Source of the DNA: Candidatus Latescibacterota bacterium
GTDB taxonomy: Bacteria; Latescibacterota; UBA2968
Assembly (NCBI GenBank): GCA_965204375.1
Contig: OZ241986.1
Span: 1,888,001-1,952,000, forward strand
Length of the DNA: 64,000 nt
Reading direction: 5' to 3'
Shown here: positions 40,835-52,349 of the stretch, in pieces
Layout: every line of letters starts with the position of its first letter
How positions within the stretch are numbered: the stretch's first letter is position 1
The notes under the pieces: generated by a model
The model's input: the letters and a program-made list of their open reading frames with translations, nothing else
The model's database searches: none
What the model was told of the DNA's origin: nothing
Program-made: the position numbers and the translations under genes

Positions 40835-41095
40835 TTATTTCAATGGAGCTATTTTGCCGGGATCCTCTAAATCTTGCGCTCGTTCCCAAGCTGCCCGCAA
40901 TTCCGCTTGATGCAAAGACGCCCAGCGAAGCACAAGTCGTTGCTCTCTTGTTGGCAAGAAGCCTTTTAGTACTTCAAGAGTTTCAATTCCAATAACTGCC
41001 TGGTTATCACCATACAGTGCGTGAAAATGCGCTGGCGGATGTTCTCTAAAATGAATTTGGATGATAATTCCGTAAAAGCGACAAAGTTCAGGCAT
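40835..41095 (-). CDS. DUF4160 family protein (TA component)
   Basis: '[12 protein letters not shown]...[12 protein letters not shown]...[13 protein letters not shown]'. Confidence 0.88.
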
Positions 41096-41372
41096 TCTCA
41101 ATCGCAACTTGTGCGCCCGACATTACTTCGTCCACAGACTTGCCCGTGAGTTCCATATATAGCGCGTCAGAACAAATATCCAGATCATCGCCCCAGGCTA
41201 TTGCACCCCCATCTGCTACGCGCGCAATCTCGAAGAATGCGCGATCATTCCAAGCAGCAAATACGCCACGCCCAGCCATATCTGATAAGTCTATCTCTCC
41301 CTCGATTCCGTCCGAATAGCGCACCCAGATGCAATAACCATCACGCGGTTCCACTGCAATTGGTCGTATCAT
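41088..41372 (-). CDS. DUF2442 family protein (TA component)
   Basis: 'YSDGIEGEIDL', 'GVFAAW', 'IAWGDDLDICSDALY'. Confidence 0.88.
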   Translation of the reverse strand: MIRPIAVEPRDGYCIWVRYSDGIEGEIDLSDMAGRGVFAAWNDRAFFEIARVADGGAIAWGDDLDICSDALYMELTGKSVDEVMSGAQVAIENA

Positions 41373-41477
41373 TGCACTTCTCCTTTTGCTACCGTTTCAA
41401 TTATCCTAACAAACAAAAGTGTAGCAACAACGCCATTTTGTCAACCGCATTTCAAAATATATCTCGGCTGACTGGAC

Positions 41478-41506
41478 TTGATTTATACGTCATTCTGACG
41501 TATAAT
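41478..41506 (+). promoter_or_regulatory. Promoter with overlapping palindromic operator
   Basis: TTGATT-17 nt-TATAAT; perfect 10-bp inverted repeat TTATACGTCA-ttc-TGACGTATAA. Confidence 0.75.
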
Positions 41507-41512
41507 TTAAGA

Positions 41513-41567
41513 ATGGAAAGAGTCCTATTTGATTCACTTCGAGGAGATCAATAAACATGACCACTAA
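41513..41567 (+). pseudogene. Remnant of a RelE/HigB-like toxin gene
   Basis: ATG about 7 nt after the -10; out-of-frame tail 'FEEINKHDH*' overlapping the antitoxin start resembles the '..EEVNKHDY*' ends of toxins preceding this HTH family. Confidence 0.55.
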
Positions 41568-41964
41568 AGAACAATATGGAACTTCTGAACTGGAGAGGGA
41601 CTTTGGACAGTTGACATTTGGAAATGCTCTGGCGAGCGATCGAACAGGAAAAGAAAAAAGCCAGAGAGCGTTTGCTGATTTCTTAGACATTTCGCCTCAA
41701 AGCCTTTGTGATATAGAAAAAGAAAGAAGAATCCCGAGTCCCAGCAGGGCAGCCAAAATTGCCAGACAACTCGGCGAGCCAGAAAGCTTCTGGGTACAGC
41801 TTGCGTTACAGGATATGCTTCGAAAAGAAAACTTGAACCTCGTTGTTTCCATACTCGCGGAAGACTATCTGGACCAAGAGGCGAAACAAGGTAAACGTGC
41901 GGATTTCGAAAAAGTCTTAAAGGCCGTGCCACACGTCGAACCAGCAGAACATGACCGGATCTAA
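41557..41964 (+). CDS. XRE/HigA-like HTH antitoxin with foreign C-terminal tail
   Basis: 'SQRAFADFLDISPQSLCDIEKERR' HTH; 'FWVQLALQD'. Confidence 0.8.
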   Translation: MTTKEQYGTSELERDFGQLTFGNALASDRTGKEKSQRAFADFLDISPQSLCDIEKERRIPSPSRAAKIARQLGEPESFWVQLALQDMLRKENLNLVVSILAEDYLDQEAKQGKRADFEKVLKAVPHVEPAEHDRI

Positions 41965-42007
41965 ATTCAGGCCACCTCCCTGGTTGCCCACACAGATAGA
42001 TCTATAT

Positions 42008-43147
42008 TCATGACGTTTCTTTGCCAAAGCTTCTGCCAAAAATCAGAAAATCGCCAAATCCAATCGTGCCATCTTCATCCAGATCGTACTTCGCGTCATA
42101 TTGCTCATCGCCGTGGTCTAATCCAAACTGGCTTGCAAAGAGCAAAAAGTCACTCAAATCAACCCGCCCATCGCCATTAAAGTCCGGCGTAAGGACTTGT
42201 AACTTTAACTCAACGCGCACATCCATGGCTACTTTCTCAATTTGCGCTGTCCGACCAAGGTCGGCACGCATCAACCGTATCGCCGTATCCGAAAATGTAC
42301 CCTTCGTGCGAAAGCGAATCGTACCCAGCAGACCGCTGTTGGCTGTTATTTGACTGCCCAAAGCCACAAGACTGATCCTGACAAAGCCTGGATTTGTGCT
42401 CTGCTCCGTCAGGGTCTGAACATTGGGCAATACATCGCTGGCCTCAAAGCCCTCATAGACAACAAGGCTCTCATCGTATTCAAATCGAATAGAGACACCA
42501 TTTGCATTCCGAATATTTGTGCCAAAGATCTGAATGGCGACAATCTCATCTGTAGATACAGCGATAGAGGTAACCGCTTGATCACCAGCACTATCATCTA
42601 CATCCAAAGACAGGAAAAAGTTGGGAGGGGTAAGTGCGCCTTGTAACACAATACGAATATTCGCCCTTGCAGATGGGGATACCAAACCAGAGCCGTATGC
42701 AAGGTAGGCATTCACCAACCATATCGCCGTATCTGAAAACGTACCCTTCATGCGAAAACGAATTGTGCCCACCAGACCGCTTTGAGCCGTAGCCCCGTCA
42801 TCATAAGAACTAAAACTAATCTCGACAATGCCTGGCCTCCGCGATGTGAATGGGGAGTCAGGGAACACATCACCGGCATCAATGCTCTCATAGACAACGA
42901 GATTCGCATCGTATTCAAAGCGCACAACAAGGCCGCGCACAACAAGGCCATTCGCATTTCGAATATCTTGACAAAATATCTGAATGGCGACAATCTGATC
43001 AGCCGACACATTGACAGAGGTAACTGCCTGGTCACCTGCCCAACCATCCACATCCAGCGAAAGGGAAAAGCTATTTTGTGCCGAAAGAGATAGCGGATAC
43101 ACCAAAAGGGCGAGTATTGATAAAGTTGACAGAATCAGGTTACGCAT
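42008..43147 (-). CDS. Exported protein with two cohesin-like repeats and a C-terminal dockerin/EF-hand module
   Basis: Signal peptide; duplicated 'LSLDVD..AGDQAVTS....IVAIQIF' domain; 'DFNGDGRVDLSDF...DLDEDGTIGFGDF'. Confidence 0.8.
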   Translation of the reverse strand: MRNLILSTLSILALLVYPLSLSAQNSFSLSLDVDGWAGDQAVTSVNVSADQIVAIQIFCQDIRNANGLVVRGLVVRFEYDANLVVYESIDAGDVFPDSPFTSRRPGIVEISFSSYDDGATAQSGLVGTIRFRMKGTFSDTAIWLVNAYLAYGSGLVSPSARANIRIVLQGALTPPNFFLSLDVDDSAGDQAVTSIAVSTDEIVAIQIFGTNIRNANGVSIRFEYDESLVVYEGFEASDVLPNVQTLTEQSTNPGFVRISLVALGSQITANSGLLGTIRFRTKGTFSDTAIRLMRADLGRTAQIEKVAMDVRVELKLQVLTPDFNGDGRVDLSDFLLFASQFGLDHGDEQYDAKYDLDEDGTIGFGDFLIFGRSFGKETS

Positions 43148-43306
43148 CGGGATTTCCTTTCGTTTCTTGGCGCACGGCGTCCCACATTGTATTCTCCTCT
43201 CAATGCCTCTCAGGTCAATTATCCAAGACAAACGAGACAAACGTCCTGTTTGATCGCTCTCAGGCACTTAAAACGATTGCTTTCAAGAAGAGAATCGGGA
43301 GATCGT

Positions 43307-46300
43307 CTAAGCCTCTAAGAGAGATTTAACCCACTTGTCAATGGAAATCCCGTTCTCCCATAGTTTTGTAGAGACCCCATAACGAAGCAGTTTCTCATTG
43401 TGCAAGCGTACGGGATTACTACTGGCAAGTTTGTCCACCCCCTCATACACCTTAAAAATATCATTGCCTATATTGGTAACAATTTTTGCGGACTGTTTGA
43501 CTTCAGCCAATTCCCATGATTCTGGTATCTCTTGCCCTCGCAGGTCAATAACGCATAGTACGAAACGATCTGAGTCATCCGAGGCAGTCCGAGCTTGAAG
43601 CGGGGTAAGTCGAACATCGCCGGTTGTAGTAGTTTTTACTTCCAGAAAATAGCTCCCGACCTTAAAACTGAATAACTCATCATCCAAACTGCTATCCGCC
43701 TGGCCTGGTAATACTTCGTAGTCATAACCTCTATCTACAAGTTGGAGATCAAGATCGTGTAATTGGATAACTTCAGCCAACATTGCTTGCACAGCAAGGC
43801 CAAAACTACGATTGTGTTCGCGTATTTCTGCTTGGCGATTTCGTTTTTTAAGTTCCTCGCTAATTTCCTGAATCTCGTCAGGTTCTGCCTCTGATAAAAG
43901 TCTTACTACTTCCGGATTTTCGACCGCAGCCTTTACCACATCCAAATTTGTAACGGCGGATTTAGCCAAAGTTGGATCCTGAAGTAATTTCACCAAATTG
44001 CTCTCAATCTCGGGATCCAAGTTTTCAGTCATGAGGGTGAGTTGCTTGAACCCAAAAACACGATGTAGTAAGTCTATTCCGTAGGGATTGTTCTGCAACC
44101 AAGATGGATTGAGAAGTCCCCGTAAATTAGCTTCATTGGCCGGTACTGGTGCAAAACCTTTTTCCTCCGATTCCTCCGAACGTTGAACGGGCACCCACGC
44201 TCGCACTTTAAGTTCAAAAGGCCAAGTAGCTCCACGAAGCTTCAATGACACTGACTCACCTGAACGATTGCCACTAACTTCCTTAATTCTTCGCCAGCTT
44301 TGATCCTCTCTTGCGGCTACATTAAGAACAAAATCCAGCAACCGCTTTGCAAGCTCTGTATCCTGCCCACAACGATTCACTATATCAGTCGAGAGAAACG
44401 CAATCTGTCCAAAATTTTCATTCCTGACTGTTACCTCCTCATCCTCTTGGCTATCAAGGGCCATCGCCTTTAGCAAGTTTAGATTTTCGTTTCTATCAAG
44501 GGACCTGGTCGCCTTATATAAAGGTCCTCCTATTACAAGACCGGCTGCAATAAGAGGAGTAAGCACGCCATTAAGATCCTTATCATTACAGTAATGATCA
44601 GAAAGCAAACGGTTCTTTGTGTAAAGATCAACATAAGGTTGTGCTGATTGAGGCCAATGCAAAACTGGAGACAGAATTTGTTGACTGCCCGTAAGCCGTA
44701 TTATCTTATTGGCTGCGGTCAACAAAGGACATTTGCGAAGTAGTGGGACATTATCATCCTTTCCAGCCAAGTATATTGCCAGACGCGCAGATGCACGTAG
44801 AGCAGGCAAATCGGTTTCCTCGCTGCCGTCCCGTAAGCACTTATCCAATTCGCAAAGTATATTATCTACTGCTTTTGTTTCGGTGTAAGACTCGCCAAGT
44901 TTTTTAAAAATAAAACCCTTTGCAGATTCGTAACCAGGTTCGTTTAAAGCTTCAACAACGTTTTTGTGCAAAAGTTTGGAACGGAGGTCTATTCCTATAT
45001 CATTGGCAATATCCTTAATCTTCTCCGGAATGTCTTCATCAATGCGAAGGTCACTCAGACGGCGCAATTGGGAATGCTGGTTTGGCACAAGGCCCGCAAC
45101 TAAGGGCTCTACATTAACACTCTTCGGAAGATCAGCAATCAAACGGAACAAATCGGCAAGCCACTTGAAAGAGCCTTCGCTAATGGGCAGGTCTGTAATA
45201 TCCTGACCCTTTTTCTTGACCCAATCTGTCAACTCTGTGAGACCGAATCGTGTGACTGGCAACCCCATCTCTTCCCATTGACGGGCTATCTCATCCCAAT
45301 CTTGAGCAAGTGTCTTGTCAGGTAAATAAAGGCCTGTGACTCGAGAGGCAAGTTGGTAGATGGCATTGTAATCAACCGCATTTTGCCCTTCCGAGTCGGT
45401 TGCTGGAACTAAAAATGTGACGTTTTTACCATCGTCTTGTAGGGCTGGCAATAAACCACCTTTAGTATCTATAATTGGTTTGGCAGCAGTTACTTTCCCG
45501 ATTTCCGAAATAACATTCTTCCACCATTCTAGTTCATCGCTTCCTTCACCGCCTAATGTGCGTTTGGGAATGGCGAGGTGAGCAAGTTTATGGGCATCAC
45601 GCCACCGTGATTTCACAGCGTCCTGGATAAGTGTAGGAAACGCCTCCATTGCGGTAGAGATCAAGTCACGGTCATTCGGAGTCATCGCAATAACTTCGCG
45701 CTCCTGTTTTGGATCAAAACTGCCATCCAGCACAACGTTGAAAGGCAAAAAGTCAGTTTCAACGATGGGGAACTTAACAAAAATTCTTGGAAAGTCATCC
45801 GCGGGCAATACCACCCTATACCGATTGCTATCACAATTCTCTAAAACGACGAGCAAAGCTGACTGGGCATTCTGGCTGCTTATGCGGAGTGCCGTAAGTT
45901 GTCGAGTAGTTTCATCTGGGGAAACCGTAACCTCAGTTAGCTTTAGTACAAAGCCATCTATCATTTTGTCAGTCGTATTTGCTGGCTTAAAAAATGTAGC
46001 CCCCTGTGGACGCACAATGCGAACTTGACCAAGTTTTTCACAGGTTACATAGAGATATGGAAGCACCTGTTCCAAACGGTCCAGTCCCCGTTGTGCAACT
46101 TCACAATCAGCATCAGAATAGGTAAACAACGCTGTAGGATTTTTAGCTATACATGGCTCTGGCAAAGACTGTGCCTTGCCAATTGCCTCATTAGCCTGTT
46201 CTATGTTCTCCGCAATTGCATCTTCGTCTCCATCACGGTTAAGTTCTATACGGAATCTTTCGTGGTCTTTCTCTATCTTGAGAACTCCATGCACATCGAC

Positions 46301-46663
46301 ATGCGTTGATAGCGCATGTGTTACCAGAAACCCCGTACCGAAGCGTCCCGTTGTCTCCTCATCGTCAAAATCTTTACTGGAACCTCCGGACAACAGCGCA
46401 GCTAATTCTTCGGTTGTGAAGGGCTTTCCCGTATGGGAAACGAGCAAATCATTGTCTTTGAAGATAAAACTAATTTTTACGCGTTTGTCACCGTCACGCG
46501 GTCCGGCGTCGTGGGCATTTTGAATAAGCTCAAACGGCCATCGGACACCTGCACTGGGCATATTCTGCGCCGCATCTACTTTGGTGCGGATAGTGCGTGC
46601 GTCATTTCGGTTTCGTTGATGCTTACTTGCCTCCTCGTATTCTGCACGGGCAGTTTCGCTCAT
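43307..46663 (-). CDS. Sacsin-like GHKL ATPase with C-terminal PD-(D/E)xK (DUF3883-like) nuclease domain
   Basis: 'FELIQNAHDA', 'HTGKPF', 'TGRFGTGF'; C-terminal 'GYDYEV...FLEVKTT...LTPLQ'. Confidence 0.75.
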   Translation of the reverse strand: MSETARAEYEEASKHQRNRNDARTIRTKVDAAQNMPSAGVRWPFELIQNAHDAGPRDGDKRVKISFIFKDNDLLVSHTGKPFTTEELAALLSGGSSKDFDDEETTGRFGTGFLVTHALSTHVDVHGVLKIEKDHERFRIELNRDGDEDAIAENIEQANEAIGKAQSLPEPCIAKNPTALFTYSDADCEVAQRGLDRLEQVLPYLYVTCEKLGQVRIVRPQGATFFKPANTTDKMIDGFVLKLTEVTVSPDETTRQLTALRISSQNAQSALLVVLENCDSNRYRVVLPADDFPRIFVKFPIVETDFLPFNVVLDGSFDPKQEREVIAMTPNDRDLISTAMEAFPTLIQDAVKSRWRDAHKLAHLAIPKRTLGGEGSDELEWWKNVISEIGKVTAAKPIIDTKGGLLPALQDDGKNVTFLVPATDSEGQNAVDYNAIYQLASRVTGLYLPDKTLAQDWDEIARQWEEMGLPVTRFGLTELTDWVKKKGQDITDLPISEGSFKWLADLFRLIADLPKSVNVEPLVAGLVPNQHSQLRRLSDLRIDEDIPEKIKDIANDIGIDLRSKLLHKNVVEALNEPGYESAKGFIFKKLGESYTETKAVDNILCELDKCLRDGSEETDLPALRASARLAIYLAGKDDNVPLLRKCPLLTAANKIIRLTGSQQILSPVLHWPQSAQPYVDLYTKNRLLSDHYCNDKDLNGVLTPLIAAGLVIGGPLYKATRSLDRNENLNLLKAMALDSQEDEEVTVRNENFGQIAFLSTDIVNRCGQDTELAKRLLDFVLNVAAREDQSWRRIKEVSGNRSGESVSLKLRGATWPFELKVRAWVPVQRSEESEEKGFAPVPANEANLRGLLNPSWLQNNPYGIDLLHRVFGFKQLTLMTENLDPEIESNLVKLLQDPTLAKSAVTNLDVVKAAVENPEVVRLLSEAEPDEIQEISEELKKRNRQAEIREHNRSFGLAVQAMLAEVIQLHDLDLQLVDRGYDYEVLPGQADSSLDDELFSFKVGSYFLEVKTTTTGDVRLTPLQARTASDDSDRFVLCVIDLRGQEIPESWELAEVKQSAKIVTNIGNDIFKVYEGVDKLASSNPVRLHNEKLLRYGVSTKLWENGISIDKWVKSLLEA

Positions 46664-46732
46664 TATAGCCTCCTAAAAATATCGTGAAAATTTTAAATAT
46701 CTAATCAATCGAATTTCTGCGAGATTCCATTG

Positions 46733-47035
46733 TCATTTCACCACCCCCTTCTGCCGACCACGGCGTAGGGTGCGTTTTTGATCTGCGGGGTTTGAGGGAT
46801 AGGCGGTGATGACACATCCGTTGCGTATCACGACCTTGCGATTTGCAAGGCGGCTCAACGTTTGTATCTCTCGCTTTCGAGTCTCGATCTCGCGGATGGC
46901 ATCCTGGTTGCACATAAGCCATGTCTCGTCGTCAATCTGCGTTCCGCACGCGAGAATAATTGGAATATCTGACTTGCGAATGCCTCGCTGTTGCATGCGT
47001 GTCCTGGCGTGTCGGCTATAAATGAGATTACTCAT
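46733..47035 (-). CDS. DUF4258-like small protein (putative RNase toxin)
   Basis: 'YSRHARTRMQQRGI...VITAY'; ATGA overlap with upstream gene. Confidence 0.7.
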   Translation of the reverse strand: MSNLIYSRHARTRMQQRGIRKSDIPIILACGTQIDDETWLMCNQDAIREIETRKREIQTLSRLANRKVVIRNGCVITAYPSNPADQKRTLRRGRQKGVVK

Positions 47036-48081
47036 TGGTCGTCTCCTCCTTTTTCAGTTTTGGACCTGGTTTTAGAAGCATTCTCAAACCACTCCCTTAT
47101 ATCGTCTCCTTTCGGCGACGTGGCTATAAACTTTGCGGCTAAGTTCTCTTGCTCCTTCTCAGGAATTTCCTTGAAGATGTCCAGCACCTTGTCTTCAAGC
47201 CACTTCGCACGATCCTCGCCTGCATCTTCTGCCATCAATTTCTCAGGGATATCTGAGAGCCGCGCACAACCAGTTTCAAGGCATACTTTGGCTATAGAGG
47301 ATCCGTTAGTAATATGGTCAATTTCTTCGCTACAGATGTCGTAGTGAGGAAACTTGAAATCTGATGCGATACTGAGAACGCCGCCATCTACATCAACGAC
47401 GCTGGGGATGGCGAGTTCATCTGCCAACTTTCGCAATTCATCTGCCAACTTTCGCAAATAGTGGGTAAATGGATTTTCTGTGGAGGGATCAAAGGGCGCA
47501 CCTATAAAATCATTATTCAGATATTTGCCGAACAGATCGGCCTTGTCGATGGAATCTGCTTCCGACCCGGCAACACCTCCGCACATGTGATCAACCATCT
47601 CATAAAAAGGAGGTAGGCTCAGCCAAGATACGTCAATTTGATACAAACGATCGTACGTTTCCTCTATCTCTTGCAATTTCTTGCGCCGCTGGGCGAGACT
47701 ACCCTCGGCCAGAAGCACAAAAAAGAGCGGTGCCATGTTGATGATCTCGGTGGCATTGACACCATATCGGCGTTTGATAAGGTCGTAGGCGAGTCGGGTC
47801 TTTGGTGCAATCTGCGCGCCGATCGGGACGCGATCAAGATTGTCGGTGAGCGTATCATCGGACTCGGGAAGTGGCAAATCGCCTGTGAGCACACCTGGTT
47901 CAACGCTGAGTGCTTTGGCCAGGCGGTTCAGCGTGTCCTCTCGGGTTTTTTGGGATCGATGAGGTTCTTGTTCCAAACGTTGGATTGTGCGTACGGTGAT
48001 GCCAGATCGTTTTTCAAGTTGTGGACGTGTAAATCCTTTCTTTTCGCGCACGGTGCGAAGGCGATCAGGATTGATTTTCAT
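47032..48081 (-). CDS. XRE-family HTH protein with large unknown C-terminal domain
   Basis: 'LRTVREKKGFTRPQLEKRSGITVRTIQRLE...LAKALSV'; AAGGAG RBS. Confidence 0.8.
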   Translation of the reverse strand: MKINPDRLRTVREKKGFTRPQLEKRSGITVRTIQRLEQEPHRSQKTREDTLNRLAKALSVEPGVLTGDLPLPESDDTLTDNLDRVPIGAQIAPKTRLAYDLIKRRYGVNATEIINMAPLFFVLLAEGSLAQRRKKLQEIEETYDRLYQIDVSWLSLPPFYEMVDHMCGGVAGSEADSIDKADLFGKYLNNDFIGAPFDPSTENPFTHYLRKLADELRKLADELAIPSVVDVDGGVLSIASDFKFPHYDICSEEIDHITNGSSIAKVCLETGCARLSDIPEKLMAEDAGEDRAKWLEDKVLDIFKEIPEKEQENLAAKFIATSPKGDDIREWFENASKTRSKTEKGGDDQ

Positions 48082-48367
48082 GGCAAAACTCCTTAGCTTG
48101 AGTTTTCATAATGAGACTGCTTAAATGCGATACACCAAAACATATCTTTTTTAGAAAAATTTTTCAACAGAAATAAAGAGAAAAATCCTGAATAAATTAT
48201 TTATATAAATGACATAAAGAACAAATATGTCCTTATCTTGTCTCAGGGAATATATTTAACGCCCCATTAAAGCGTGTCAAAGAAGACAAACGCGGACATT
48301 TTGATGTTTTGTATCCCTCGCCCGTTCCCCGCGGATGTGGCGTGGGTTTGACCAATGTCGCCAGTTA

Positions 48368-48404
48368 CAAAAAAATACCGCCCTCCCGATATTGGAAGAG
48401 CGGC
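48368..48404 (-). terminator. Intrinsic terminator
   Basis: gccgctcttcc-loop-gggagggcggt followed by A-T7 on minus strand. Confidence 0.7.
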
Positions 48405-48520
48405 ACTGAATGGGCCGGTGTGGTGGACCGACGCTTGTATTCTTCAAATCTCAAAACATCTCTTTTAATCCATGTGCTACGTCTATTGCGGCGAGTAATA
48501 GGATAGCCATAACCGCACGT

Positions 48521-48751
48521 TCAAGTTGATTCCACCAGTGCTTCTTTGGCTCTACGAGGCAATTCGACGAGGATAAAATAAGACGCTGGATATAAATAAT
48601 CTTCCCGCGATTCATCTACGACTCTCAAATATCCTTCTCGGGTCGCTTCTGCATCAGGCAAAATCTGGTAGATCTTTCGCATCTCCAGATCATCGCAATC
48701 CCTGTTCTCGATACACAGCGCGAATTGAGATTCTGATAGGTTCTTTTTCAT
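48521..48751 (-). CDS. Small acidic hypothetical protein (putative antitoxin/immunity)
   Basis: 'DLEMRKIYQIL...YLRVVDESREDYLYP'; 1 bp after partner gene. Confidence 0.7.
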   Translation of the reverse strand: MKKNLSESQFALCIENRDCDDLEMRKIYQILPDAEATREGYLRVVDESREDYLYPASYFILVELPRRAKEALVEST

Positions 48752-48752
48752 T

Positions 48753-48989
48753 TTACCACTCCAGGAATCGTTTGATCTTCATCTTTCTTCGGCCAATTCC
48801 ATGCGCCTCATACCAATGGATCTCTGCTCGGCGGATACTGCCATTGCTCAAGCGAATACGGGCAATACCTTTGCGTTTCAGCCACCGGCCAGCCCCATAT
48901 TGCCTGCGAAGCCGCATAATCTCACGGATTTGTCCGCCTACAGCAATCGTTTCAATAGGCTCAATCGCGCCTATAATTTCAAAGTGCAT
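48753..48989 (-). CDS. Small basic hypothetical protein (putative toxin)
   Basis: 'GRWLKRKG...RAEIHWYEAHGIG'; GGCGGAG RBS. Confidence 0.7.
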   Translation of the reverse strand: MHFEIIGAIEPIETIAVGGQIREIMRLRRQYGAGRWLKRKGIARIRLSNGSIRRAEIHWYEAHGIGRRKMKIKRFLEW

Positions 48990-49007
48990 TGAAAAACCAT
49001 CTCCGCC

Positions 49008-49775
49008 TCAAATCCGCTCCAACGCACGCGCCTCAACCCAGCCGCCGAGACCCGATCGCAAGCGCACCAGCAACCACCCACCTTCAACCCGTTCAATCTC
49101 GACCTTCGTGCCCTCGTGCAGTGCGAACACCTGTAAAAAATCGGAGCCAGGCCCGCTGCGGCCAATAGCCTCATCTACCAAAATGATAGCTTTGGGAATG
49201 CTGTGTTGATGCGCCTTAAACGCCAGCATAGCTGTACTGCTCAAAAGTCCGCCTGCAAAAACCACCAGCAACCCACCCCACAGCAAGCGCCGGACCGGCA
49301 CAAAAATCCAACACACCGCTACACCACCCATTAAAAAAACAAACACACAAACCATAACTGCCAGCGCATCGAGGGTAAAAAACGCAAAAATCGCTTGCAA
49401 AATCCGCGTCAAAATATTGACCTCATCTTCGCTTTCTCGATCTATCTTCAGGGCATTAGCAAACTGCAAATTCGTCAGAACATCCCGATCATCCGGCATC
49501 AAATTCAAAGCGCGTTCATAAGATAAAATCGCACGCCCGAGTTGCGCGTTTTTAAAATACGCATTGCCCAGATTATAATATACCTCGCCGTTGTTCAGCC
49601 CCTGTGCGATAACGCGCTCATAAGCCGAAATCGCCGCATCAAAATCCCCGGCGCGATAGTGTTCATTGCCCCGATTGTACAGCGCGACAAGAGCTTCTGA
49701 GGCCAATACCGCATCCACGCCAAGTATCGCAACTGCGACAACGGGGTATAACAACCGTACTATCACCGTCCTCAT
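49008..49775 (-). CDS. batE: BatE-like TPR + SH3 protein
   Basis: TPR 'YYNLGNAY', two TM segments, 'LHEGTKV...GWV' SH3. Confidence 0.85.
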   Translation of the reverse strand: MRTVIVRLLYPVVAVAILGVDAVLASEALVALYNRGNEHYRAGDFDAAISAYERVIAQGLNNGEVYYNLGNAYFKNAQLGRAILSYERALNLMPDDRDVLTNLQFANALKIDRESEDEVNILTRILQAIFAFFTLDALAVMVCVFVFLMGGVAVCWIFVPVRRLLWGGLLVVFAGGLLSSTAMLAFKAHQHSIPKAIILVDEAIGRSGPGSDFLQVFALHEGTKVEIERVEGGWLLVRLRSGLGGWVEARALERI

Positions 49776-49777
49776 GA

Positions 49778-51622
49778 CTAAATACACCGCTCCAGCGCAC
49801 CGATCAAATCTTCGGTCTGCGCGAACAAAGCCTGCATCTGTTCTGCCGAAATCTGCCCCGGCGCAAACCGCGCCTGATCGCATTGACCAAATACGTCTTG
49901 AACGCCTGCAATCACCTGTGCATCTACACCGCTTTCCGCCAGCACAGCACCAATCTGGTCCGCCGTTAAACCCGCCGCTGCGCGATTGGTTCGATCTGCG
50001 AAAAACTGTGCCAAAGACCTGTGAACTTCACCGTGAAAACCCGCGCTATCGCCCGCCTCCATTAACCCTTTAGCCTTGCCCAAACGCCGCTGTACTTCCG
50101 AGCGCGAACGCCTTCTGCGCGCATAAGCCACATCGCCTTCTAAACGCACGCGATGACGTCGATAAGCATAAGCACCGGCCACTCCCAAAACGGGAACCAG
50201 TTGCAAAAGCCAAAACCCACTGCGCTGATAAAGTAACAAGCCCTGATCGGCCAAATGCATCCGGTCAGGTTTGATATACCGGATATCGCTCCCCAATGCA
50301 CGCACTTCTTCACCTATCAACCCATCAACCGGCTGCGGCATCTGTTCACCCGGCGTCACATGCAAAGTAATCGGTTTGGTCTGCGCGGTTTTATACCGCT
50401 TCTGCACAGGATCAAAATAGGCCAGTGTAAAAGGCGGCAATATCACCTGCCCTATTTTATGTGGAATCGCCACATACTCAAAAGTTTTTTGTCCGCTTAT
50501 GCGCGTGCCACGCTTTCGCGTTTCCAAATTCGTCTTGGGATCATAAAACTTAAAACCCGACCGCTCCGGACGAACAGGCTCGTTAATCGCGTGCAAATTT
50601 CCCGCCCCCTGCACCACTATCTTCACCGCAACGGGATCACCGGCTTTCACCGTACCTGGAATCGCCTCAGCGCGCATCTCAAATTGCCCAACGGTGCCGC
50701 CAAACCCCTTCGGCGCACCAGCGGGCAACGGCTTCACCTCAATTTCAATATCGCCTGACCGCACCGTCACTTGCTGCGTATCAAATGTATTAAATGGATC
50801 AAAATCGAACAGACTGCGCGGCCGTCGCCCCGCAACAATTTCGCAATTCACCTCAAGTTGCTCCAGGGTGTGCTTACCTGCCGTTGTCGGAAATAGCACC
50901 AAACGCTTGAGCAACGCCGTATTAAACGCGCGCCCATCGACAACCTCCCGCTGCATATTCAAACGCTGGGCATCAAACACAGTCTCTGCCCAAAATCCGG
51001 TAAACGTCGGCACATGGCCGTATTGCACATTTCGCAAATCATAGCGCGTAAACAATTTATAGGTCACCCCCACCTGTTCCCCCACATAAACCGCTCGTTT
51101 TTCGGGAATCGTCTGCAAAAACAAATTTTGTTCAATCTCCTGAATCTCTGACTGTCCCATTGACCGTCCCGTTGATGGCGCAGGGCGCGTCTGAGGGCGA
51201 CCACTTCTTTTCACTACCTCAACGCGCACCTGATCAGACCGAATCGTCTTATCTTCATGGATCAACTGTGCCGGACCGAGCACATAAGTGCCAGCTCTCT
51301 GTGCGCGAAAAGAGAAATGATATGTCGTCGTGCGCTTTGTAGTCATCGTACCATTGACAATGTTGACGGACATCGACGTAGAAGACGTACTCCCCGTCAA
51401 TTGCAACCCGTCAGGCGTGGGAACCTGGGGTGCAGACACACTCCCCATCTGTGCGGCCTCCACCTCCACAGTGAACTGAATCAGATCGCCAACTTCGACC
51501 CGAGTGCGATTCACCGAAGCCTGCATAGACACATCCTGTGCATCAACCCCCTGTGCCCATAATAGAGCAAACAAAACACCGCACAAAAATATCCATCTCT
51601 CCCTACCACGCATTGCCGTCAT
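49778..51622 (-). CDS. batD: BatD family protein
   Basis: Signal peptide, 'SVNIVNG', 'VYVGEQV', 'FGGTVGQF', 'DIRYIK'. Confidence 0.88.
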   Translation of the reverse strand: MTAMRGRERWIFLCGVLFALLWAQGVDAQDVSMQASVNRTRVEVGDLIQFTVEVEAAQMGSVSAPQVPTPDGLQLTGSTSSTSMSVNIVNGTMTTKRTTTYHFSFRAQRAGTYVLGPAQLIHEDKTIRSDQVRVEVVKRSGRPQTRPAPSTGRSMGQSEIQEIEQNLFLQTIPEKRAVYVGEQVGVTYKLFTRYDLRNVQYGHVPTFTGFWAETVFDAQRLNMQREVVDGRAFNTALLKRLVLFPTTAGKHTLEQLEVNCEIVAGRRPRSLFDFDPFNTFDTQQVTVRSGDIEIEVKPLPAGAPKGFGGTVGQFEMRAEAIPGTVKAGDPVAVKIVVQGAGNLHAINEPVRPERSGFKFYDPKTNLETRKRGTRISGQKTFEYVAIPHKIGQVILPPFTLAYFDPVQKRYKTAQTKPITLHVTPGEQMPQPVDGLIGEEVRALGSDIRYIKPDRMHLADQGLLLYQRSGFWLLQLVPVLGVAGAYAYRRHRVRLEGDVAYARRRRSRSEVQRRLGKAKGLMEAGDSAGFHGEVHRSLAQFFADRTNRAAAGLTADQIGAVLAESGVDAQVIAGVQDVFGQCDQARFAPGQISAEQMQALFAQTEDLIGALERCI

Positions 51623-52349
51623 ATCTCCTGCCTCGCAACTTCAATTTGCGTCGCTTTTGGGATTCTTCCTCTCGCGCCTTCATCGCATTGAGAATCCGCG
51701 CCGCCTCCTCGGGCGTCATCTCTCTGGGATCGGGCTGTTCGCCCTGCTGTTGTTTTTGCTGATCCTGCTGATCTTGCTGATTCTGTTGATCCTGCTGATC
51801 TTGCTGATTCTGTTGATCCTGCTGATCCTGGTTATCCTGATTATCCTGATTATCCTGTTGATCTTGTTGATCCTGGTTATCCTGTTGATCTTGTTGATCC
51901 TGATTCTGATTTTTATCCTGCTGATTCTGATCCAGTTTTTCCAGTGCCAATTCTAAATTTATTTTGGCGTCTATATCATCCGAATTCAGTTCCAATGATT
52001 TTTTATAAGCCCCTACAGCTTCCTGGAACTTCTCTTGCCGAAACAGCGCATTGCCCAAATTGTAATGTGCCGCAGCAGACATATCCGGAGGAGTGCCTTC
52101 GGTGGCACGCCCCATCTCCTGCAAAGCCTCGGCATATTTCCCCTGCTTGTAGAGCGCATCGCCAGCATTAAAATGCAACTCCGGTCGCGTGCGCGCCTCT
52201 TGTTGCGCTTCCAAATACCGACGCAACGCCGCTTCGTACTCCCCCTTTTCAAATAGAGCATTGCCCTCTTCATTCTTTTTTGCCACGGGATCGAGAAATG
52301 TCCACCCCAAAAATGGCAACATCAGCAAGACATATAAAAATCGCTTCAT
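51603..52349 (-). CDS. batC: BatC-like TPR protein with Gln/Asp/Asn-rich linker
   Basis: TPRs, Q-rich tract, 'MTPEEAARIL...W' C-terminus. Confidence 0.85.
   Translation of the reverse strand: MKRFLYVLLMLPFLGWTFLDPVAKKNEEGNALFEKGEYEAALRRYLEAQQEARTRPELHFNAGDALYKQGKYAEALQEMGRATEGTPPDMSAAAHYNLGNALFRQEKFQEAVGAYKKSLELNSDDIDAKINLELALEKLDQNQQDKNQNQDQQDQQDNQDQQDQQDNQDNQDNQDQQDQQNQQDQQDQQNQQDQQDQQKQQQGEQPDPREMTPEEAARILNAMKAREEESQKRRKLKLRGRRYDGNAW
51748..51932 (-). repeat. Degenerate 9-bp tandem repeat (DQQ/DNQ/NQQ)n
   Basis: Repeated gatcctgct/gatcttgtt/tatcctgat units in batC. Confidence 0.85.

What the first reader, a model, noticed from the sequence alone, without database searches (positions are those of the whole stretch)
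43307..48300. Candidate undescribed defence island: XRE-HTH protein + DUF4258-like RNase + sacsin-type ATPase-nuclease
Seen: three co-oriented genes behind an AT-rich 5' region. They encode a 349-aa HTH protein with a large unknown domain, a translationally coupled (ATGA) 100-aa DUF4258-like protein, and 69 bp later a 1118-aa protein with an N-terminal GHKL ATPase and a C-terminal D...EVK nuclease motif. Codon usage looks different from the flanks by eye. Known: GHKL ATPases fused to restriction-like nucleases, and toxin/HTH pairs, are typical of defence islands. Inference: an anti-phage unit pairing a DNA-targeting ATPase-nuclease with an abortive RNase held in check by the HTH protein. I cannot match it to a named system.
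Basis: partly seen in the sequence, partly recalled or inferred. Interest (0 to 1): 0.72.

Follow-up and report, generated by a model that had tools for sequence, protein, structure and literature searches.

The report
Tiamat defence gene behind toxin-antitoxin-like cassette
The large ATPase-nuclease is a member of the already named Tiamat anti-phage family, and the two small genes in front of it are a separate, repeated regulator-plus-putative-toxin cassette that sits in front of many different genes in related bacteria.

Summary

The 1118-aa protein matches the PADLOC Tiamat profile (TmtA) end to end at E 2e-120. Its ATPase residues (E45, N49, D52) and nuclease residues (D981, E1008, K1010) are invariant. 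It therefore belongs to a named single-gene defence family.

The HTH + DUF4258 pair is a discrete cassette of about 1.76 kb, made of a conserved 385-bp leader and the two genes.
- It occurs three times in this genome.
- It occurs in 32 of 168 genomes of the phylum.
- A full-length DUF4258 gene follows the HTH gene in 36 of 43 loci examined.
- TmtA follows the pair in only 2 of those 43 loci.

Elsewhere the pair precedes PDC-S64, HEPN/AbiU2, ResIII helicases, a SNF2 helicase-nuclease, other toxin-antitoxin pairs, or unrelated genes. TmtA has a foreign composition (GC3 0.40); the pair matches its flanks. The HTH gene is a recombination mosaic.

Best reading: Tiamat is cargo inserted behind a resident, probably autoregulated, toxin-antitoxin-like cassette, and it may be read through from the cassette's promoter. 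An obligate three-gene system is unlikely. RNase activity and toxin-antitoxin binding remain untested.

The parts
43307..46663 (-). tmtA-like gene, 1118 aa: Tiamat-family GHKL/sacsin-type ATPase, long middle region, C-terminal PD-(D/E)xK-like nuclease
   Evidence: PADLOC TmtA PDLC03967 E 2.3e-120, end to end. NF047352 E 3.6e-20. NOV_C/DUF3883 weak, E 0.0016, 18.9 bits under the 22.1 cut-off. 280 relatives at E<=1e-3 among the 8000 candidates scored. GC3 0.40, unlike the flanks.
46502..46531 (-). ATPase N-box codons, residues 45-54 (E45, N49, D52, G54; the ELIQNAHDAG stretch)
   Evidence: Invariant in 22 of 22 aligned relatives (alignment A4). The equivalent Glu (E44) is needed for defence by B. 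cereus Tiamat according to the preprint (passage read).
43634..43723 (-). Nuclease motif codons: D981 ... E1008-V-K1010
   Evidence: D981, E1008 and K1010 (and Q1023, further downstream) are invariant in 22 of 22. They lie inside the weak NOV_C match.
46664..46732 (-). 69-bp AT-rich spacer between DUF4258 and tmtA, with a GGAGG ribosome-binding site. The conserved cassette ends here and the cargo begins.
   Evidence: Sequence. No terminator-like site on the minus strand. The one promoter-like hit has its -10 hexamer over the start codon. Similarity to 9 of 10 other loci stops at 46707-46727; only L017 continues.
46733..47035 (-). 100-aa DUF4258-family protein (putative BECR-type toxin), translationally coupled to the HTH gene
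   Evidence: PF14076 E 4e-8. 215 relatives at E<=1e-3; the listed ones are 65-92% identical. Mean column identity 82%. Atlas neighbours are DUF4258 clusters at 0.91-0.94. Its fold was not matched to any solved structure.
47032..48081 (-). 349-aa protein: XRE HTH (residues 7-64) plus an unnamed conserved domain (about residues 83-310); presumed repressor/antitoxin
   Evidence: 722 relatives at E<=1e-3; 693 clusters at the 50% identity level match the C-terminal part; solved structures match the HTH only. The gene is a recombination mosaic.
47416..47457 (-). Perfect 21-nt tandem duplication inside the HTH gene (LRKLADE twice)
   Evidence: D4. The extra 7 residues are absent from the other 49 aligned family members.
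48082..48469 (-). Conserved non-coding leader of the cassette
   Evidence: Aligned in 11 of 11 close loci at 72% mean column identity with long invariant runs (A3). blastn similarity starts at 48422-48469 in all ten loci. No Rfam family at E<=1.
48139..48167 (-). Promoter-like TTGAAA-17-TATGTT, conserved in position across the leaders
   Evidence: columns about 341-372 of A3.
48210..48232 (-). Inverted repeat GGACAT-N11-ATGTCA: candidate operator for the HTH protein
   Evidence: Read. L014 and L016 carry GGATAT-N11-ATATCC, with both arms changed together.
48374..48407 (-). Terminator-like hairpin followed by a T run at the 5' edge of the cassette
   Evidence: 14 pairs. Nearly invariant in 11 of 11 leaders. 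An 82-bp piece holding it occurs twice in L012 and in L016.

Best explanation
The locus holds two separable modules.

(1) tmtA encodes a Tiamat-family defence protein. By homology it is a dimeric GHKL ATPase whose ATP cycle gates a C-terminal PD-(D/E)xK nuclease acting on phage DNA. It was probably acquired horizontally.

(2) In front of it lies a resident cassette of about 1.76 kb. The cassette has its own conserved leader, a promoter-like site and a palindromic candidate operator. It encodes an XRE-HTH protein with an unnamed ~230-residue domain, translationally coupled to a DUF4258 protein. I read this as a type II toxin-antitoxin-like pair in antitoxin-toxin order, autoregulated by the HTH protein.

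The cassette is multi-copy, is mostly inherited within host lineages, and recombines among its copies. The DNA just past its stop codon is a place where variable genes, often defence genes, sit.

In this window the tie between pair and Tiamat is positional and probably transcriptional (read-through over a 69-bp spacer without a terminator), not a shared mechanism.

Shown: family assignments, catalytic motifs, copy number, the cassette's borders, variable cargo, composition, mosaicism.

Inferred: nuclease and ATPase activity, toxicity, antitoxin binding, autoregulation, co-transcription.
For: Tiamat assignment:
- PADLOC TmtA E 2.3e-120, end to end.
- Sacsin-type ATP-binding domain.
- Invariant E45/N49/D52 and D981/E1008/K1010 in 22 of 22 relatives.
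- The preprint reports ATPase and ssDNase activity for B. cereus Tiamat (abstract; sections read).

The pair is autonomous:
- Three pair copies in this genome against one TmtA.
- Pair present in 32 of 168 phylum genomes, TmtA in 11 of 168, adjacent only in G000 and G086.
- Full-length DUF4258 directly follows the HTH gene in 36 of 43 loci; TmtA follows in 2 of 43.

Variable cargo:
- PDC-S64 in L012 and L016.
- HEPN AbiU2 in L010.
- ResIII helicase in 8 loci.
- SNF2 helicase with NOV_C in L096.
- At the same chromosomal site as the window (Bat operon to thrC), L012 and L016 carry PDC-S64 instead of TmtA.

Sharp border: DNA similarity to 9 of 10 loci ends 6-26 bp after the DUF4258 stop.

Composition: GC3 is 0.40 for TmtA, 0.50 and 0.58 for the pair, 0.51-0.55 for the flanks.

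Mosaic HTH gene: the best-matching locus switches from L011 to L017/L011 to L012 to L010 along the gene.

The leader, promoter-like site and palindrome are conserved in 11 of 11 loci.

Antitoxin-toxin gene order is what Gerdes 2025 tabulates for DUF4258 (PMC11980606, passages read).
Against: - The same three-gene block is collinear over 5187 bp at 81.5% identity in a second genome at a different chromosomal site (L017), with a 70-bp spacer.
- 6 of the 10 closest TmtA clusters (75% identity or more) share a 'longest contig' length with a listed pair member, some on contigs of only 5.6-9.3 kb. So within one shallow TmtA clade the trio recurs and may travel together. Equal contig length is a proxy, not shown adjacency.
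- An AU test did not reject putting the two TmtA-linked HTH proteins in one clade (p 0.082).
- There is no terminator and no convincing separate promoter before tmtA, so the HTH protein may control it.
- The first downstream ORF is co-oriented in 39 of 43 loci. The loci are kin, and neighbouring bacterial genes are often co-oriented anyway.
- The toxin reading is weak. Only the first third of the DUF4258 profile matches. The predicted fold (pLDDT 72) matched no BECR structure. The 'toxin' is more conserved than the 'antitoxin'.
Confidence: 0.6

Rival explanations
1. The HTH + DUF4258 cassette is a shared regulatory or sensing front end for interchangeable defence effectors. It drives and gates expression of whatever lies behind it (Tiamat, PDC-S64, HEPN proteins, helicases), much as other HTH or WYL regulators precede defence systems. 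The DUF4258 protein would be a co-regulator or second effector, not a classical toxin.
For: - Short co-oriented spacers: 69-70 bp to TmtA, 36 bp to PDC-S64, 72-75 bp to the helicase in L031, L097 and L104.
- No terminator after DUF4258 in the window.
- The first downstream ORF is co-oriented in 39 of 43 loci.
- Many of the following genes are defence-type.
- The leader and palindrome are conserved.
- The Tiamat preprint notes conserved HTH and WYL regulators in some Tiamat neighbourhoods (section 23).
Against: - In several loci the pair is followed by small unknown ORFs and then ordinary metabolic genes: Fe-ADH and Rieske in L109, L110 and L114; enolase-family in L105 and L106. In others a gene on the opposite strand follows (L096, L102, L113, L114).
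- The peptidase-WD40-dockerin proteins further downstream carry signal peptides and look like flank, not cargo.
- No expression data could be obtained.
- Co-orientation counts come from related genomes.
Confidence: 0.25
2. One reading: an obligate three-component anti-phage system in which the DNA-targeting ATPase-nuclease and an abortive RNase work together under control of the HTH protein.
For: - The trio recurs collinearly in G086/L017: TmtA 77%, DUF4258 84% and HTH 61% amino-acid identity.
- It probably also recurs on several short metagenome contigs (contig-length coincidences).
- The genes are tightly spaced.
Against: - TmtA follows the pair in 2 of 43 pair loci.
- 9 of 11 phylum genomes with a TmtA match lack the pair within 1.5 kb upstream, including a full-length 50%-identical TmtA in G159.
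- Only 1 of the 110 listed TmtA clusters at 66% identity or less shares a contig length with a listed pair member, and that contig is a 7.3-Mb genome.
- Two pair copies in this same genome have no TmtA.
- Tiamat protects as a single gene according to the literature.
- TmtA and the pair differ in composition.
Confidence: 0.1
3. The pair is not a toxin-antitoxin module at all. It is an ordinary lineage-specific transcription factor with a small, very basic accessory protein, and its place next to defence genes only reflects a recombination-prone variable region.
For: - Only profile positions 1-32 of 71 of DUF4258 match.
- No BECR-like structural match.
- The small protein is unusually conserved (82% mean column identity), and its tail is rich in Arg and Lys.
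- The HTH tree largely follows host families f1, f2 and f4.
- No member of the DUF4258 family has been tested, according to Gerdes 2025.
Against: - The Pfam score is above the gathering cut-off.
- The nearest Atlas clusters are DUF4258.
- The 4-nt overlap and antitoxin-toxin order fit type II modules.
- There are several copies per genome, decayed copies (L100, L111, L117), and other TA pairs as neighbours (Phd/PIN, Panacea, DUF433/DUF5615). All of this is typical of TA modules.
Confidence: 0.2

Closest known systems
Tiamat (TmtA), single-gene anti-phage system; B. cereus prototype
   Same: End-to-end match to a PADLOC TmtA profile. N-terminal GHKL/Hsp90-like ATPase with the catalytic Glu. Long middle region. 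C-terminal PD-(D/E)xK (DUF3883/NOV_C-like) nuclease with conserved D...ExK.
   Different: Pfam detects neither DUF3684 nor NOV_C above threshold. By the preprint's criteria it would probably count as 'Tiamat-like' with a divergent nuclease; that is my inference. The neighbourhoods listed in the preprint's main text are helicases, methyltransferases, and MADS1-like HTH or WYL regulators. DUF4258 occurs 0 times in that text. Its figures and supplements could not be seen.
Type II toxin-antitoxin modules with BECR-fold toxins of family DUF4258 (PF14076)
   Same: Pfam match above cut-off, antitoxin-then-toxin order, overlapping genes, DNA-binding upstream partner.
   Different: The partner is a 349-aa HTH protein with a large unnamed domain, not a short antitoxin. 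Only the N-terminal third of the profile matches. Fold, toxicity and RNase activity are unshown. The family itself is uncharacterised (PMC11980606, passages read). A 2026 preprint places it with colicin-like BECR RNases (passages read).
RosmerTA (RmrT/RmrA)
   Same: The antitoxin-like protein begins with an XRE HTH and is about 350 aa long. PADLOC RmrA profiles hit it (E 2e-7).
   Different: Only the HTH matches (profile positions 2-63 of 363). There is no similarity over the rest, and no RmrT. Not a member.
Regulators that precede defence systems (CapH, BrxR/WYL, MADS1-like HTH)
   Same: An HTH gene at the 5' end of varied defence genes, with a conserved palindrome in its leader.
   Different: The capH match covers the HTH only. 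There is no WYL domain and no partner peptidase; a DUF4258 gene stands in that place. Likeness to MAD1 could not be tested because no sequence was available.
Defence-island or variable-region hotspots bounded by conserved genes
   Same: Different cargo at the same chromosomal site in related genomes: TmtA versus PDC-S64 at the Bat-thrC site; TmtA versus unknown or HEPN-like genes at the methyltransferase-cupin site.
   Different: The anchor here is a multi-copy, recombining two-gene cassette rather than a single-copy core gene or tRNA. No integrase, terminal inverted repeats or target duplication were seen.

Membership tests
Tiamat (TmtA) | Full-length similarity to curated TmtA profiles | tested here: met
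   PDLC03967 E 2.3e-120, residues 4-1116 on profile positions 3-1057 of 1063. Seven further TmtA profiles hit the N-terminal part.
Tiamat (TmtA) | N-terminal GHKL/Hsp90-like ATPase with catalytic Glu and Gly-rich lid | tested here: met
   NF047352 at 72.2 bits against a cut-off of 50. HATPase_c E 7e-4, below its cut-off. E45, N49, D52, G54 and G106-F112 invariant in 22 of 22.
Tiamat (TmtA) | Central DUF3684 region | tested here: inconclusive
   No Pfam DUF3684 match, even at E up to 5, for residues 200-899. The PADLOC TmtA profile nevertheless aligns across this region. The preprint says this region is annotated 'to varying degrees'.
Tiamat (TmtA) | C-terminal PD-(D/E)xK nuclease (DUF3883/NOV_C) | tested here: met
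   NOV_C E 0.0016, 18.9 bits, under the 22.1 cut-off. D981, E1008, K1010 and Q1023 invariant in 22 of 22. One relative (P0310) carries a precomputed PF13020 hit.
Tiamat (TmtA) | Protects against phage; needs the ATPase Glu | not testable with these tools
   Requires a phage challenge of the cloned gene and an E45A mutant.
Type II TA with DUF4258 (BECR) toxin | Toxin belongs to PF14076 | tested here: met
   E 4.1e-8, 33.8 bits against a cut-off of 25, but only profile positions 1-32 of 71 match. Nearest Atlas clusters are DUF4258.
Type II TA with DUF4258 (BECR) toxin | Bicistronic, antitoxin first, coupled translation | tested here: met
   ATGA overlap. The same layout holds in 36 of 43 loci. 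Antitoxin-toxin order is tabulated for this family.
Type II TA with DUF4258 (BECR) toxin | BECR (barnase/colicin-like) fold with catalytic residues | tested here: inconclusive
   AF2 model has pLDDT 72, three helices, a beta-hairpin and a helix. Foldseek best E 2.2. VIA best Z 5.3, to unrelated helical proteins.
Type II TA with DUF4258 (BECR) toxin | Toxin arrests growth; antitoxin binds and neutralises it | not testable with these tools
   Needs expression with and without the partner, and a pull-down.
RosmerTA | RmrA with HTH plus its C-terminal domain; RmrT toxin next to it | tested here: not met
   RmrA profiles match only residues 2-76 (the HTH). No RmrT hit for any neighbour.
   TmtA follows the pair in 2 of 43 pair loci. 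2 of 11 TmtA-bearing genomes of the phylum have the pair upstream. The trio does recur within one shallow TmtA clade.

The most novel reading that the evidence does not exclude
The HTH + DUF4258 cassette is a previously undescribed 'docking and expression platform' for defence genes. It would be a multi-copy, autoregulated, recombining two-gene unit. Its highly conserved 3' gene gives the homology by which cargo is swapped between cassette copies and between genomes. Its promoter and HTH sensor put each cargo (Tiamat, PDC-S64, HEPN proteins, helicase-nucleases) under a common infection-responsive control.
Probability: 0.2. Interest if true: 0.65.

Novelty: new member of a known kind. Interest (0 to 1): 0.36.

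Why it matters
As it stands, this is a routine annotation gain. A 'hypothetical protein' in Latescibacterota-type genomes can be named Tiamat, and the locus should not be counted as a new system.

Two leads remain.
- The partner of DUF4258 here defines a large unnamed domain family: 693 clusters at the 50% identity level, with no Pfam model and no solved relative. DUF4258 itself has never been tested.
- The cassette with its sharp 3' border and changing defence cargo offers a tractable case for how defence genes are exchanged and perhaps co-regulated. It is a possible handle for finding new defence genes by looking behind such cassettes.

Tried and rejected
- **Complex prediction** of the HTH protein with the DUF4258 protein: no verdict, score 0.00. 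It says nothing either way.
- **Structure of the 349-aa protein**: only the HTH and residues about 250-300 are confident (mean pLDDT 61), so no fold search was run on it.
- **DUF4258 model**: no significant match with Foldseek on the PDB or with VIA wide.
- **Profile of 61 diverse family members against PDB sequences**: HTH matches only.
- **TmtA profile against PDB sequences**: nothing at E<=0.01.
- **Protein Atlas for the C-terminal domain**: best score 0.78, a lead only (~178-aa proteins, one cluster named CopG-like).
- **Rfam over 41000-50000** at E<=1: one chance-level hit elsewhere, nothing in the leader.
- **Repeats**: no terminal inverted repeats or flanking direct repeats around the cassette or tmtA.
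- **Expression**: the one RNA-library run (X5) holds contigs of a 90-97% similar relative at the same depth as the DNA run of the same sample (X4). Transcription is therefore not shown.
- **Monophyly of the two TmtA-linked HTH proteins**: the 38-row tree separates them. The AU test on a 17-row subset does not reject joining them (p 0.082), and the group was named after seeing the tree. The mosaic gene makes any single tree unreliable.
- **MAD1 likeness**: the MADS preprint gives no sequence or domain detail in its text.
- **Earlier findings of this scan**: none near the locus.
- **** failed on a frame slip in my coordinates and was repeated correctly.

Rows dropped before counts:
- L018 and L042-L062: HTH-only matches.
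- L037 and L038: cut by contig ends.
- L094: the same place as L016.
- Sequence-identical metagenome duplicates (L032=L033, L034=L035=L036, L040=L041): counted once.
- Not fetched: partial HTH matches (G075:C376, G081, G079, G058:C3, G048:C34) and G051:C273, which sits at a contig end.

Full report
**Observation.** The three genes exist as described, on the minus strand: 47032-48081 (349 aa), 46733-47035 (100 aa) and 43307-46663 (1118 aa). The first two overlap by ATGA. The third follows after 69 bp that include a GGAGG ribosome-binding site.
- The leader is AT-rich: GC 0.31 over 48082-48300, against 0.49 for the window.
- Pfam finds an XRE-type HTH at residues 7-64 of the 349-aa protein and nothing in its other ~280 residues, even at E up to 5.
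- The 100-aa protein passes the DUF4258 gathering score (33.8 bits against 25), but only through profile positions 1-32 of 71.
- The large protein has a sacsin-type ATP-binding domain (NF047352, E 4e-20).
- The 'different codon usage' applies to the large gene only: GC3 is 0.40 there, 0.50 and 0.58 for the two small genes, and 0.51-0.55 for the Bat-operon and thrC flanks.

**The large protein is Tiamat.** PADLOC's TmtA profile PDLC03967 aligns with residues 4-1116 over profile positions 3-1057 of 1063 at E 2.3e-120. Seven other TmtA profiles hit the N-terminus.
- In an alignment with 21 relatives (47-87% identical), several residues are invariant: E45, N49, D52, G54, the G106-F112 lid, D981, E1008, K1010 and Q1023.
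- The C-terminal 219 residues give a weak NOV_C/DUF3883 match (E 0.0016, 18.9 bits, below the cut-off).
- A 2026 preprint (10.64898/2026.09.30.754977) was read as abstract, sections 17 and 23, and passages. It describes Tiamat as a stand-alone defence gene from B. cereus that needs its ATPase Glu (E44). It is a GHL ATPase with a DUF3684 core and a DUF3883 PD-(D/E)xK nuclease. The purified protein hydrolyses ATP, nicks duplex DNA poorly and cuts ssDNA.
- The preprint's main text lists helicases, methyltransferases and MADS1-like HTH or WYL regulators as neighbours. 'DUF4258' occurs 0 times in that text. Its figures and supplements could not be seen.
- Pfam finds no DUF3684 here and no NOV_C above threshold. 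By the authors' strict curation this protein would probably fall among 'Tiamat-like' proteins with a divergent nuclease; this is my inference.
- The subfamily is not rare: 280 clusters at E<=1e-3 among 8000 scored, and the few that carry a source name are labelled 'hypothetical protein'.

**The pair is a separate, repeated cassette.**
- This 6.34-Mb genome has three HTH + DUF4258 pairs with the same 4-nt overlap, but one TmtA.
- blastn shows one conserved DNA block, window 48469-46712. It comprises a 385-bp leader and both genes, at 75-82% identity in all ten other close loci compared.
- In nine of those ten loci the block ends 6-26 bp after the DUF4258 stop.
- The leaders of 11 of 11 loci align. 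They share a nearly invariant terminator-like hairpin (48407-48374), about 100 conserved nucleotides after it, and an inverted repeat GGACAT-N11-ATGTCA (48232-48210). In L014 and L016 both arms of that repeat change together. They also share a promoter-like TTGAAA-17-TATGTT (48167-48139).
- Rfam finds nothing there. I read the inverted repeat as a candidate operator; this is inference.

**How widespread the pair is.**
- The HTH protein has 722 full-length relatives at E<=1e-3.
- Its C-terminal part alone finds 693 clusters at the 50% identity level, 315 of them at E<=1e-10. In most of them the domain starts near residue 80-95, behind an HTH.
- A profile of 61 diverse members matches solved structures only through the HTH.
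- The DUF4258 protein has 215 close relatives and is more conserved than its partner: 82% against 54% mean column identity.
- In the phylum, the HTH protein is found in 32 of 168 genomes and TmtA in 11 of 168. Record titles of relatives name Candidatus Latescibacterota.

**What lies behind the pair.** I examined 43 distinct loci: 3 in this genome, 8 from genome contigs, 27 fetched by handle, and 5 distinct metagenome loci.
- A full-length DUF4258 gene follows the HTH gene in 36 of 43. It is decayed in 3 (L100, L111, L117) and not detected in 4 (L105, L106, L118, L033).
- The first ORF after it is co-oriented in 39 of 43.
- TmtA is that gene in 2 of 43: the window and L017 (G086).

Other genes behind the pair:
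- PDC-S64 in L012 and L016.
- HEPN AbiU2 in L010, with relatives or fragments in L113 and L107.
- A weakly HEPN/DUF4145-like 224-aa protein in L015, L014 and L118.
- A ResIII helicase of 636-752 aa in 8 loci. It is the first gene in L031, L097 and L104.
- A 1152-aa SNF2 helicase fused to NOV_C in L096.
- Other TA pairs: Phd/PIN, Panacea, DUF433/DUF5615.
- Transposases, unknown small proteins, and in some loci ordinary metabolic genes.

The large peptidase-WD40-cohesin/dockerin proteins downstream of the other two copies in this genome have signal peptides. They look like conserved flank rather than cargo.

At the window's own chromosomal site (Bat operon to thrC), L012 and L016 carry PDC-S64 where the window carries TmtA. 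At the methyltransferase-cupin site, G086 carries TmtA where this genome (L009) and others carry unknown or HEPN-like genes.

**Evidence that keeps a link alive.**
- The window and L017 are collinear over 5187 bp at 81.5% identity, from the leader to 13 bp before the tmtA stop. The spacers are 69 and 70 bp.
- Among the ten TmtA clusters at 75% identity or more, six share a 'longest contig' length with a listed HTH or DUF4258 hit: 5616, 9286, 37533, 260532, 8040 and 5747750. Among the 110 listed clusters at 66% identity or less, one does, and it is a 7.3-Mb genome (compared by eye; a proxy for adjacency).
- So within one shallow TmtA clade the trio recurs. Deeper TmtA relatives, such as the full-length 50%-identical copy in G159, lack the pair within 1.5 kb.
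- In the HTH tree the window groups (96/97) with pairs that precede AbiU2, HEPN-like or unknown genes, and L017 lies outside that group. An AU test does not reject joining the two (p 0.082).
- The HTH gene is a mosaic. Its best match switches from L011 (94-96%) to L017/L011 (94%), then to L012 (89-92%), then to L010 (85-90%) along its length. Cassette copies therefore recombine, which can move cargo between them and blurs any tree.

**Mechanism.** The best-supported reading has three parts.
1. tmtA is horizontally acquired cargo (foreign GC3). By homology it acts as an ATP-gated nuclease on phage DNA.
2. The cassette is an autoregulated type II toxin-antitoxin-like pair in antitoxin-toxin order. 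That order is what Gerdes 2025 tabulates for the uncharacterised DUF4258 family (PMC11980606, passages read). A 2026 preprint places the family among colicin-like BECR RNases (passages read).
3. No terminator-like site lies between DUF4258 and tmtA. The only promoter-like hit in the spacer puts its -10 hexamer over the start codon. tmtA is therefore plausibly read through from the cassette promoter and so falls under the HTH protein's control.

RNase activity, toxicity, binding and co-transcription are all inferred. The fold of the small protein could not be matched to any BECR structure.

**Novelty and verdict.** The headline claim of an undescribed three-gene defence system is not upheld. 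The effector is a new member of the known Tiamat family, and the pair is an independent module.

What is not in print, as far as my searches show:
- 14 papers hold 'DUF4258', none in title or abstract.
- The search for 'Tiamat/TmtA' returned 1,242 papers holding either term; two of the 20 listed (both 2026 preprints) concern the defence protein.
- I found no description of the HTH-domain-X partner family, nor of a recombining cassette with changing defence cargo directly behind it.

That lead is moderately interesting but rests on related genomes and crude ORF calls.

Noticed in passing
window 48521-48989 (minus strand): Two small abutting ORFs of 78 aa and 76 aa lie between the Bat operon and the cassette. 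They have no Pfam, NCBIfam or PADLOC family and no PDB relative. They may be another small two-gene module.
   Followed up: partly
window 40835-41372 and 41557-41964: A DUF2442 (41088-41372) / DUF4160 (40835-41107) gene pair and a 135-aa HigA-like HTH gene sit on the other side of the variable region. DNA of the 135-aa HTH gene (41527-41852) recurs at 88-91% identity near pair copies in L008, L011, L015 and L017.
   Followed up: partly
window 42008-43267: A cohesin-dockerin protein (419-aa ORF; a signal peptide begins at an internal Met). Its 3' part (42017-42624) is 72-74% identical to the 3' ends of the secreted metallopeptidase-WD40-cohesin/dockerin genes found downstream of the other cassette copies. 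A 140-bp remnant of it directly follows DUF4258 in L011.
   Followed up: partly
L012:3714-3795 and 4806 onward; L016:5708-5789 and 7649 onward: The 82-bp leader piece holding the terminator-like hairpin occurs twice in each locus. The two copies bracket about 1-1.9 kb holding three small unknown genes of 93, 133 and 97-104 aa.
   Followed up: no
L031, L097, L104, L098, L108, L115, L012 (and a fragment in L103): A ResIII/DEAD helicase of 636-752 aa, with a zinc ribbon in L031, recurs behind the pair. Its best PADLOC likeness is to the helicase part of type IV methyl-directed restriction enzymes. It is the most frequent large neighbour in the more distant family f4.
   Followed up: partly
L096:2323-5781 (G040): Behind the pair, after an IS200-like fragment, lies a 1152-aa SNF2 helicase fused to a clear NOV_C/DUF3883 nuclease (E 6e-20). 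This is the same nuclease family as Tiamat's C-terminus on a different motor.
   Followed up: no
L021 / L029 (G137:C1:3192096-3192793): A remnant of a close TmtA relative: residues 1-166 (65% identical) run straight into residues 1047-1115. This is an internal deletion of about 880 codons.
   Followed up: no
window 47416-47457: A perfect 21-nt tandem duplication adds LRKLADE to the HTH protein. It is unique to this copy among 50 aligned relatives.
   Followed up: yes
window 51603-52349: The TPR protein of the Bat-like operon carries a long low-complexity run of Q, D and N (DQQDQQDNQDQQ...).
   Followed up: no
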